A DNA stretch of 13,522 nucleotides from a virus, in UHGV virus genome UHGV-0292061; one strand, 5' to 3'. Below, piece after piece: positions 9,415 to 10,266 of the stretch. Both the position numbers and the translations under genes were made by a program. Under the pieces are notes generated by a model that saw nothing but the letters and a program-made list of their open reading frames with translations, searched no databases and was not told where the DNA came from. The stretch's first letter is position 1. Every line of letters starts with the position of its first letter.

Positions 9415-9798
9415 TCAGTAACGAGCGCGCCTTCCGGTAATTTCATACCGGCAAATACCGGACAGCCCGGGGATCGTTATCTGCAGCTGGTTAGCCAGGG
9501 AGTTAATCTCAGCGACCAACACTGGCTTCGTATAGCGCCATGCCGCCAGCCCTTGTCCACAGAAGCTCGCCATATCTTTTTTCTGATCAAACTCATGACA
9601 CTTCATATTGAGCTGCGCACTTAAGCTGTTGCGATGCTGAAGTTCTCCGGTGAAGTAGTCATCCAGGACTTTATAGGCTGCATATTTAAATCCGGGGTTT
9701 AGCCATGCTGCATAATCATAAGCAACAAACTTCCCGCCATATGTTCCACCGTGTACACCGCGCTCAGTAAAAACCACAGATTCGTGTTTTTTCTCCAT
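9415..9798 (-). CDS. KilA-N-like domain protein (short form)
   Basis: 127 aa; GGTYGGKFVAYDYAAWLNPGFKYAAY resembles the conserved C-terminal block of KilA-N/APSES domains (GTWVHPDLA...WLSPEF), but the N-terminal two-thirds of a typical domain are absent. ATG at 9798 directly abuts the Rz stop (TAG-ATG). Confidence 0.45.
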   Translation of the reverse strand: MEKKHESVVFTERGVHGGTYGGKFVAYDYAAWLNPGFKYAAYKVLDDYFTGELQHRNSLSAQLNMKCHEFDQKKDMASFCGQGLAAWRYTKPVLVAEINSLANQLQITIPGLSGICRYEITGRRARY

Positions 9799-10266
9799 CT
9801 ACTTAATGCGCTGGGTGCGGATATATTCCTGCGCCCCTTCCAGTTGCTTCTGCATCGTCATCAACCGTTCTCTGAGGGTGAAATAATCCCGTTCAGCGGT
9901 GTCTGCCAGTCGGGGGCTGGTTGCATTATCCATGCTGGTGGGTCCGGTGGCTTCACGCACGGCTGCGGAGCAACTGGCATTGACCCGCAGGCGCTTACGA
10001 CCAGCGGCAACATCAGCGCGCAGAGTTTCATTTTCAGTTTTCGCATCGGCTAACTCCTTCGTGTATTTTGCATCGATCGCAGCAACATCACGCTGACGCT
10101 GCTGCATGTCAGCGATGGTGGCGGTCGCCTGCTTCAGCTCACTGACTTTTTTATCACGCTGTTCTTTGTAGGCGATGGCGTTATCACGGTAATGATTAAC
10201 AGCCCATGACAGGCAGGCGATGATACAAATAACCAGAGCGGAGATAATCGCGGTTACTCTGCTCAT
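9799..10266 (-). CDS. Rz: Spanin, inner-membrane subunit (lambda Rz-like)
   Basis: 155 aa; [32 protein letters not shown]...[17 protein letters not shown]...[26 protein letters not shown] is near-identical to remembered lambda Rz; ATGA overlap with the R stop. Confidence 0.93.
9861..10046 (-). CDS. Rz1: Spanin, outer-membrane lipoprotein subunit (lambda Rz1-like), embedded in Rz in another frame
   Basis: 61 aa [22 protein letters not shown]...[32 protein letters not shown] matches remembered lambda Rz1 (lipobox, proline-rich core, same C-terminus). Confidence 0.9.

What the first reader, a model, noticed from the sequence alone, without database searches (positions are those of the whole stretch)
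9415..9801. Short KilA-N-like ORF translationally abutting Rz
Its ATG directly follows the Rz stop (TAG-ATG), implying coupled expression with the lysis genes. Only the C-terminal signature of a KilA-N/APSES domain is visible, so it may be a truncated remnant or a distinct small family. In lambda this position holds unrelated accessory genes such as bor on the opposite strand, so this is a variable cargo slot next to cos.
Basis: partly seen in the sequence, partly recalled or inferred. Interest (0 to 1): 0.45.

Follow-up and report, generated by a model that had tools for sequence, protein, structure and literature searches.

The report
Truncated KilA-N gene remnant after Rz
The short ORF after the phage lysis gene Rz is a leftover internal piece of a well-known 165-residue KilA-N/ORF11CD3 phage gene, and its ATG start is a rare single-base change at a deletion scar, so it is an ordinary gene remnant rather than a new small gene.

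Summary
The ORF exists as described. It lies on the minus strand at 9415-9798 and encodes 127 aa. Its ATG (9796-9798) directly follows the Rz stop TAG (9799-9801).

It is a fragment. Residues 1-114 are 97% identical to residues 52-165 of HK620 HkbK. HkbK is a 165-aa KilA-N + ORF11CD3 protein that sits behind Rz in many lambdoid phages.
- **5' end:** the first 51 codons, the Rz-hkbK spacer and its terminator-like hairpin are deleted. The join falls in a 3-nt AGC microhomology.
- **3' end:** the last 15 codons are an out-of-frame read of the 3' end of a phiP27 L33-like gene.
- **Start codon:** the ATG is HkbK Leu52 CTG changed by one base. Relatives with the same junction mostly keep TAG-CTG: 99 versus 2 complete E. 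coli genomes, and 36 versus 6 IMG/VR contigs.
- **Translation signal:** there is no Shine-Dalgarno sequence.
- **Domains:** KilA-N scores below the Pfam threshold (last third only). ORF11CD3 is intact.
- **Selection:** variants private to truncated alleles are 6 nonsynonymous to 2 synonymous, against 5:32 between full-length alleles. The tail has a frameshift polymorphism.

Verdict: a decaying mosaic-junction remnant, already in databases (phage cdtI orf60). It may be weakly translated by reinitiation after Rz. Low interest.

The parts
9799..10266 (-). Rz i-spanin gene (155 aa), complete. Its amber stop is at 9799-9801.
   Evidence: Pfam PF03245 168.8 bits over profile 1-125/126; phrog_13 1-153/154. 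The same ATTAAGTAG end occurs in phage phi467, followed there by unrelated sequence.
9861..10046 (-). Rz1 o-spanin gene embedded in Rz in the +1 frame (61 aa, lipoprotein-like [20 protein letters not shown]...).
   Evidence: ORF list and translation. Assignment rests on resemblance to lambda Rz1 (own knowledge); PGAP annotates an 'Rz1 family lipoprotein' in relatives.
9796..9798 (-). ATG start codon, equal to Leu52 (CTG) of full-length HkbK. The base at 9798 is the C>A change (minus strand) that creates the start.
   Evidence: Alignment with HK620 and phi458. Junction probes in complete E. coli genomes: ATG 2/5426, CTG 99/5426. IMG/VR: 6 ATG and 36 CTG. No Shine-Dalgarno: -1.1 kcal/mol against -6.2 to -10.2 for Rz, Rz1, R and TerL.
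9464..9798 (-). hkbK-derived segment: ORF nt 1-335, corresponding to HkbK codons 52 to about 163.
   Evidence: 97.4% protein identity over ORF residues 1-114 to HK620 hkbK. The 5' breakpoint lies in an AGC microhomology: phi467 TAG|CC, hkbK GAG|CTG.
9649..9756 (-). Remnant of the KilA-N domain (ORF residues 15-50, the last third of the domain).
   Evidence: PF04383 profile 71-106/107, 15.9 bits, below the gathering score of 23.8. Full-length HkbK scores 58.5 bits over profile 6-106. The AF2 model of the full-length protein places strands b1-b2 and helices a1-a3 in the deleted part. In the model of the 127-aa ORF, residues 1-17 have pLDDT below 50.
9469..9627 (-). Intact ORF11CD3 domain (ORF residues 58-110), predicted helical.
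   Evidence: PF10549 51 bits, E=1.7e-13, profile 1-54/54. Helices appear in both AF2 models.
9415..9463 (-). Foreign tail: the last 15 codons (SGICRYEITGRRARY) plus the stop. It is an out-of-frame read of the 3' end of a phiP27 L33-like gene.
   Evidence: DNA alignment with phiP27 L33 (NP_543085...CPVFAGMKLPEGAVVTE*). L012 and L040 carry a 1-nt deletion that puts the tail in the L33 frame (...PGLPVFAGMKLPEGAVVTE*). L030 keeps the native hkbK end plus hkbL.
9366..9404 (-). Stable hairpin just downstream of the stop codon with no U tract. It was co-inherited with the L33-like fragment.
   Evidence: -26.3 kcal/mol, z = -5.2. Conserved in phiP27 downstream of L33.
9147..9148 (.). Approximate position of the cos cleavage site (end of the genome of related cos phages).
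   Evidence: The phage cdtI record ends at query position 323 and the phage Tritos record starts at 324 of window 9470-8964.

Best explanation
The ORF is a doubly truncated remnant of an hkbK-type gene. hkbK encodes a 165-aa protein with a KilA-N/APSES-fold DNA-binding domain followed by an ORF11CD3 helical domain. In many lambdoid phages hkbK sits with its partner hkbL between Rz and the packaging genes.

The events, in inferred order:
1. An illegitimate (microhomology AGC) deletion or recombination joined the Rz stop codon to hkbK codon 52. This removed the Rz-hkbK spacer with its terminator-like hairpin, any promoter it held, and the N-terminal half of the KilA-N domain. The product was TAG-CTG with no start codon.
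2. A second recombination replaced the last two hkbK codons and hkbL with the 3' end of an L33-like gene, read out of frame. This added a 15-residue nonsense tail.
3. In one sub-lineage, which includes this window, a C>A change turned the Leu codon into ATG directly after the Rz amber stop.

The segment is presumably transcribed with the Q-antiterminated late operon (inferred from lambda). In this allele it could be translated only weakly, by ribosomes that terminate at the Rz stop and reinitiate, because there is no Shine-Dalgarno sequence. Any product lacks a foldable KilA-N domain and so cannot do the job of the full-length protein. The sequence is evolving without detectable constraint.

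Shown here: the homology, both junctions, allele frequencies, the order of events, the domain loss and the lack of a Shine-Dalgarno sequence. Inferred: late transcription, reinitiation and lack of function.
For: - **Homology:** ORF residues 1-114 equal HkbK residues 52-165 at 97% identity.
- **Loss in the ORF:** the ORF keeps only KilA-N profile positions 71-106, at 15.9 bits against a gathering score of 23.8. It lacks the nearly invariant LTD.W motif.
- **Normal gene order:** full-length phages have Rz, then a terminator-like hairpin within 200-340 bp, then kilA (165 aa), then hkbL.
- **Start codon:** phi458 and cdtI have TAG-CTG at the same junction, and the cdtI record notes 'Start codon is not identified'. 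Allele counts are 99 CTG to 2 ATG in complete E. coli genomes and 36 to 6 in IMG/VR contigs.
- **Order of events:** L030 has the 5' junction with the native 3' end and hkbL. All 40 IMG/VR contigs with the 3' junction also carry the 5' junction.
- **Tail:** it is an out-of-frame L33 3' end and shows a frameshift polymorphism.
- **Selection:** variants private to truncated alleles are 6 nonsynonymous to 2 synonymous, against a neutral expectation of 78% nonsynonymous. HK620 against 2851 gives 5:32, dN/dS 0.01-0.05. Fisher p=0.0013.
- **Translation signal:** no Shine-Dalgarno, -1.1 kcal/mol.
- **Abundance:** full-length clusters far outnumber truncated ones.
Against: - The 127-codon frame (128 codons in L012/L040, 114 in L030) is open in every contig read to the stop. 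It is also carried by about 100 of 5426 complete E. coli genomes. That is compatible with retention, although divergence is 1% or less, so an open frame carries little weight.
- The ORF11CD3 domain is intact. Small ORF11CD3-only PHROG families exist (phrog_23489, phrog_16011, phrog_20738), so the fragment could keep an autonomous activity.
- The ATG allele has persisted through exchange of flanking modules: different S/R in JE86 and different head modules in IMG/VR contigs.
- The polymorphism counts are small. Within-population polymorphism is normally enriched in nonsynonymous changes.
Confidence: 0.82

Rival explanations
1. Reborn small gene. The C>A change re-activated the fragment. Ribosomes finishing Rz reinitiate at the abutting ATG and make a 127-aa protein late in infection. 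Its intact ORF11CD3 helical domain would have an activity of its own. One possibility is pairing with, and interfering with, full-length KilA-N/ORF11CD3 ('Bro network') proteins of co-resident or superinfecting phages.
For: TAG-ATG adjacency with no Shine-Dalgarno is the arrangement that would need termination-reinitiation. ORF11CD3 passes the Pfam threshold over its full length. Stand-alone ORF11CD3-size PHROG families exist. The ATG allele is found behind at least two different S/R cassettes and on 70 public contigs.
Against: The ATG is the minority state, at about 6% of junction carriers. The tail is an out-of-frame read of another gene, and its frame varies between alleles. Private substitutions include radical ones inside ORF11CD3 (A96D, L101R, Q106R) at a neutral N:S ratio. 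The AF2 model of the fragment has pTM 0.34 with a disordered N-terminus. No function is known for ORF11CD3.
Confidence: 0.12
2. Distinct small KilA-N-like family. On this view it is a naturally short protein family with a minimal KilA-N C-terminal motif, not derived from a longer gene.
For: phrog_10441 is a 126-position family that the ORF matches end to end. NCBI records list 120-127-aa 'DNA-binding protein' entries.
Against: Those short entries are 97-100% identical copies of this same junction allele. They fall in the same 90% cluster as the 165-aa proteins. All more divergent homologues (49-90% identity, from Salmonella, Cronobacter, Erwinia, Pantoea and Yersinia) are 160-217 aa with a full KilA-N domain. 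HK620 HkbK matches phrog_10441 only from its residue 54. The DNA alignment shows the deletion directly.
Confidence: 0.02
3. C-terminal extension of Rz. Because the ORF is in frame with Rz and separated only by an amber codon, the biologically relevant product would be a 283-aa Rz fusion made by UAG readthrough.
For: TAG and ATG/CTG are consecutive in-frame codons. This holds for both alleles.
Against: Being in frame has a 1-in-3 chance expectation. The same Rz allele ends at this TAG in phage phi467 with unrelated downstream sequence. No readthrough signal was identified. From own knowledge, natural E. coli isolates rarely carry amber suppressors, and the Rz C-terminus must contact Rz1.
Confidence: 0.02

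Closest known systems
HK620 hkbK (NP_112071, 165 aa), equivalent to phage 2851 'kilA' and PhiR49_1 'KilA-N-ORF11CD3'
   Same: The shared 114 residues are 93-97% identical. The genomic slot downstream of Rz is the same, and so is the ORF11CD3 domain.
   Different: The window ORF lacks residues 1-51, which hold strands b1-b2 and helices a1-a3 of the KilA-N fold and the LTDMW motif. It also lacks the upstream spacer with its terminator-like hairpin and the partner gene hkbL. It carries a foreign 15-residue tail.
Phage cdtI orf60 (YP_001272573), phage phi458 Orf23 and the E. coli 120-aa 'DNA-binding protein' (P0001 cluster)
   Same: This is the same truncated allele with the same 5' and 3' junctions, at 98-99% DNA identity.
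   Different: Those copies have CTG after the Rz stop. Annotators start them at an internal GTG (codon 8) or note that no start codon was found. The window has ATG.
KilA-N / APSES DNA-binding domain (Pfam PF04383; yeast Mbp1 1BM8; P1 KilA)
   Different: Only about one third of the domain remains. It scores below the Pfam threshold, and the remaining piece is predicted disordered.
Translationally coupled gene pairs with adjacent or overlapping stop and start codons (termination-reinitiation, for example trpB-trpA; own knowledge)
   Same: The stop and start codons are adjacent and the downstream start lacks its own Shine-Dalgarno sequence.
   Different: The arrangement is not conserved, since most relatives have CTG. 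It arose from a deletion scar, not from an operon design.
Lambda bor and other morons in the Rz-cos interval
   Same: It occupies the same variable slot between the lysis cassette and cos or the terminase genes.
   Different: It has no promoter or terminator of its own, lies in the same orientation as the late operon, and is a gene fragment rather than an intact accessory gene.

Membership tests
KilA-N domain (PF04383) | Profile match at or above the Pfam gathering score (23.8 bits). | tested here: not met
   15.9 bits, E=0.012. The full-length relative HkbK scores 58.5 bits.
KilA-N domain (PF04383) | Complete domain of about 100 residues, comprising the N-terminal strands and helices and the conserved L-T-D-x-W motif. 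| tested here: not met
   Only profile positions 71-106 of 107 are present. The nearly invariant L21/T22/D23/W25/P36 columns fall in the deleted part. Strands b1-b2 and helices a1-a3 of the AF2 model are deleted.
KilA-N domain (PF04383) | Descent from a KilA-N gene (homology). | tested here: met
   97% identity to HkbK residues 52-165, and the DNA alignment shows the deletion.
KilA-N / APSES fold | Structural similarity of the domain to the APSES DNA-binding domain (Mbp1). | tested here: inconclusive
ORF11CD3 domain (PF10549) | Profile match above the gathering score (25 bits) over the whole profile. | tested here: met
   51 bits, E=1.7e-13, residues 58-110 matching profile 1-54/54.
Bro-N domain | Pfam Bro-N profile match. 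| tested here: not met
   No Bro-N hit at E<=1 in the Pfam scan.
Translationally coupled lysis-cassette gene | Stop-start adjacency or overlap with the upstream gene. | tested here: met
   TAG (9799-9801) is directly followed by ATG (9796-9798).
Translationally coupled lysis-cassette gene | The arrangement, including the start codon, is conserved among relatives. | tested here: not met
   99 CTG to 2 ATG in complete E. coli genomes and 36 to 6 in IMG/VR contigs. Full-length genes lie 200-340 bp from Rz, behind a terminator-like hairpin.
Translationally coupled lysis-cassette gene | Demonstrated dependence of downstream translation on upstream translation. | not testable with these tools
   This needs reporter fusions or ribosome profiling.
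Moron (autonomous accessory gene with its own promoter and terminator) | Own sigma-70 promoter upstream and a terminator downstream. | tested here: not met
   No promoter-like site lies on the minus strand between Rz and the ORF, because there is no spacer. The downstream hairpin lacks a U tract.

The most novel reading that the evidence does not exclude
A dead gene fragment was brought back into translation by a single base change that placed an ATG directly after the Rz amber stop. The resulting ORF11CD3-only protein, made late by termination-reinitiation, would act as a decoy or dominant-negative partner of full-length KilA-N/ORF11CD3 regulators of competing prophages.
Probability: 0.07. 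Interest if true: 0.45.

Novelty: already known. Interest (0 to 1): 0.12.

Why it matters
It matters little in itself. It is a clean worked example of how mosaic junctions in lambdoid phages leave in-frame gene fragments that gene callers and profile searches then report as 'KilA-N-like', 'DNA-binding' or 'hypothetical' proteins. phrog_10441 appears to be made up of copies of this fragment. The practical point is for annotation: this ORF and its 120-aa GTG-start versions should be flagged as a fragment of hkbK. The family's biology (KilA-N + ORF11CD3 + hkbL behind Rz, function unknown) should be studied in the full-length genes.

Tried and rejected
- **Literature:** searches for 'hkbK', 'ORF11CD3' and 'KilA-N'/'lambdoid'/'spanin' found no functional study of this gene. 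The only relevant mention lists ORF11CD3 among domain-swapping 'Bro network' domains (PMC10111431). I considered whether the fragment is an attachment scar of the helper-embedded satellites described in that paper. The located passage names no such target gene, and both junctions are explained by ordinary recombination.
- **Rfam:** a scan of 8900-10300 at E<=1 found nothing.
- **Species-representative genomes:** an exact junction pattern scan gave 0 hits.
- **PDB sequence search:** a search with the family profile found nothing meaningful.
- **PADLOC:** only a weak PDC-S22 match over about 30 residues of the KilA-N remnant, not pursued.
- **NCBIfam:** nothing meaningful.
- **tRNA scan:** none.
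- **Opposite strand:** the + strand ORF 9202-9624 (140 aa, TTG start) overlaps the ORF antisense and has no support, so I treated it as spurious.
- **Internal GTG start:** the GTG at codon 8 used by annotators has a GGAG motif, but it lies 14 nt upstream, which is too far for an efficient Shine-Dalgarno.

Full report
**Observation**

The window is the late region of a lambdoid cos prophage read in reverse. On the minus strand it carries, in order:
- an N6/N4 DNA methylase (11155-12207);
- a lambda S-type holin (within 10743-11174);
- a lambda R-type endolysin (10263-10739);
- Rz (9799-10266) with embedded Rz1 (9861-10046);
- the ORF in question (9415-9798);
- a DUF1441-type small terminase (8424-8963) and a gpA-type large terminase (6316-8415);
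- portal, a ClpP-protease/capsid fusion and tail genes.

The ORF has 127 codons. Its ATG (9796-9798) is the codon directly after the Rz amber stop (9799-9801), in the same frame.

Pfam confirms that only the end of a KilA-N domain is visible. The score is 15.9 bits against a gathering score of 23.8, over profile positions 71-106 of 107. There is no Bro-N match.

**What it is**

tblastn and megablast against phage genomes show that ORF residues 1-114 are 93-97% identical to the C-terminal 114 residues of a 165-aa protein. That protein is annotated hkbK in HK620, kilA in Stx phage 2851, and 'KilA-N-ORF11CD3' in PhiR49_1. It also occurs in many Stx, Salmonella and Shigella phages.

In those phages the order is S, R, Rz, a 200-340 bp spacer, the 165-aa gene, and then an 85-aa partner gene (hkbL) that overlaps its stop codon. 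The spacer contains a terminator-like hairpin, AGCCTCGC...GCGGGGCT followed by a T run.

Full-length HkbK scores 58.5 bits for KilA-N (profile 6-106) and 50.5 bits for ORF11CD3. An AlphaFold model of a full-length homologue (pLDDT 83) has the following elements:
- strands at 2-6 and 9-13;
- helices at 21-28, 36-41 and 43-54;
- strands at 62-66 and 69-72;
- a helix at 74-84, then two long helices at 86-130 and 132-156.

The window ORF begins at residue 52 of this protein. It therefore lacks both N-terminal strands, three helices and the nearly invariant LTD.W motif. Modelled on its own, its first 17 residues and its tail are low-confidence, with pTM 0.34.

**The 5' junction**

The DNA alignment shows Rz sequence up to ATTAAGTAG and then immediately hkbK codon 52.
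- Full-length genes read ...GCC GAG CTG GAG AAA AAC....
- The near-identical phages phi458 and cdtI read ...AAG TAG CTG GAG AAA AAA....
- The window reads ...AAG TAG ATG GAG AAA AAA....

The same Rz allele in phage phi467 ends ATTAAGTAG|CCTTTT. The join therefore lies in a 3-nt AGC microhomology, and the Rz stop is native. The window's ATG is Leu52 CTG with one base changed. The cdtI GenBank record states 'Start codon is not identified' for this ORF. phi458 and PGAP start it at an internal GTG, codon 8.

I designed 55-nt probes in which every 28-mer seed spans the variable base. These give the following counts:

| Collection | TAG-ATG | TAG-CTG |
|---|---|---|
| Complete E. coli genomes (of 5426) | 2 (both JE86 strains) | 99 |
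| IMG/VR contigs with the junction (of 42) | 6 | 36 |

One IMG/VR contig, L046, is 100% identical to the window. The six ATG contigs share one upstream S/R/Rz block at 99.8% identity. JE86 carries the ATG allele behind a different S/R cassette. At least 318 of the 5426 genomes carry the intact 5' part of the gene. Full-length protein clusters are much larger than the truncated one.

**The 3' junction**

Similarity to hkbK ends two codons before its stop. From there the window matches the 3' end and downstream hairpin of gene L33 of phage phiP27.

L33 ends ...CPVFAGMKLPEGAVVTE*. The window reads the same nucleotides one base out of frame, giving ...SGICRYEITGRRARY*. Two IMG/VR contigs (L012, L040) have lost one T at the join. 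They read the tail in the L33 frame instead, giving ...PGLPVFAGMKLPEGAVVTE* at 128 aa. The tail is therefore not constrained.

Contig L030 has the same 5' junction but keeps the native hkbK stop and hkbL. Every one of the 40 IMG/VR contigs with the 3' junction also has the 5' junction. The 5' deletion therefore came first and the 3' replacement second.

Other wrecks of the same gene exist in public data: a Rha-N::HkbK hybrid, an Rz(1-50)::remnant fusion, and an HkbK::spanin-like fusion. This fits the 'domain-swapping Bro network' described in PMC10111431.

**Selection**

Between full-length alleles the shared 336 nt are under strong purifying selection. HK620 against 2851 gives 32 synonymous and 5 nonsynonymous differences, with dN/dS 0.01-0.05.

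Variants seen only in truncated alleles are 6 nonsynonymous (G14S, F37L, A77V, A96D, L101R, Q106R) and 2 synonymous. The neutral expectation is 78% nonsynonymous. The contrast with the full-length pattern is significant: Fisher p=0.0013, or p=0.01 if three synonymous variants shared with full-length alleles are added.

The numbers are small, and polymorphism is normally enriched in nonsynonymous changes. I take this as suggestive evidence, not proof.

**Expression**

There is no Shine-Dalgarno sequence before the ATG. The anti-SD pairing energy is -1.1 kcal/mol, against -6.2 to -10.2 for Rz, Rz1, R and TerL. No promoter-like site lies in between, because there is no spacer.

By analogy with lambda (own knowledge), the region lies in the Q-antiterminated late transcript. 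The only plausible route to translation of the ATG allele is reinitiation by ribosomes that terminate at the Rz stop. That route is possible but unproven. It is unavailable, or far weaker, in the majority CTG allele.

**Verdict**

The ORF is a decaying internal fragment of a known gene family, left at a mosaic junction in the variable Rz-cos interval. The 'translational abutment' is a deletion scar plus a rare point mutation.

The one open possibility is that the intact ORF11CD3 module, if translated, retains some activity. Small ORF11CD3-only PHROG families exist. I give a functional 'reborn' gene about 0.1.

The sequence, including the exact ATG-allele protein, is already in public databases as a 'hypothetical' or 'DNA-binding' protein.

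Noticed in passing
window 9320-9362 (+ strand): A terminator-like hairpin (CCGGCAAATC...GATTT...TGCCGG) is followed by TTTTTTATT on the strand antisense to the late operon (-17 kcal/mol, z=-2.0). No credible + strand gene precedes it. It may be a relic of an antisense moron such as lambda bor.
   Followed up: partly
window 9366-9404 (- strand): A very stable hairpin lies directly after the ORF stop (-26.3 kcal/mol, z=-5.2) with no U tract. It is conserved downstream of gene L33 in phage phiP27. Its function is unknown.
   Followed up: partly
window ~9147-9148: The ends of related cos-phage genome records map here (cdtI record end, Tritos record start). The cos cleavage site is therefore about 270 bp downstream of the ORF stop.
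   Followed up: partly
window 9415-10266 (- strand): The ORF is in the same reading frame as Rz, separated only by the amber codon. An amber-suppressor host would make a 283-aa Rz fusion.
   Followed up: no
window 8319-9108 and ~10266-11090: Among relatives that share the Rz-remnant-cos block at 99% identity, two flanking regions are replaced by unrelated or diverged alleles. These are the small-terminase region and the holin/endolysin region. The recombination boundaries are sharp.
   Followed up: partly
proteins P0002, P0003, P0012, P0024 (public databases): Other chimeras of the same gene exist: Rha N-domain fused to HkbK from residue ~44; Rz residues 1-50 fused in frame to remnant residues 51-127; and HkbK fused to a spanin-like tail. 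The gene is a recombination hot spot.
   Followed up: partly
window 8424-8963 (- strand): The first ATG of the DUF1441 small-terminase ORF has no Shine-Dalgarno sequence (+0.6 kcal/mol). Relatives annotate a 164-aa protein (495 nt). The true start is therefore probably about 15 codons downstream.
   Followed up: no
window 2627-4846 (- strand): A 739-aa ORF combines a ClpP-type protease domain with a major capsid protein domain, a prohead protease/capsid fusion as PGAP names it in JE86.
   Followed up: no
window 11155-12207 (- strand): A 350-aa N6/N4 DNA methylase gene lies immediately upstream of the holin and overlaps the longest holin ORF. It is also present in phage cdtI as orf56.
   Followed up: no
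phrog_10441: This 126-position PHROG 'family of unknown function' matches the truncated ORF end to end, and matches HK620 HkbK only from residue 54. It appears to be made of copies of this fragment rather than being a real family.
   Followed up: partly
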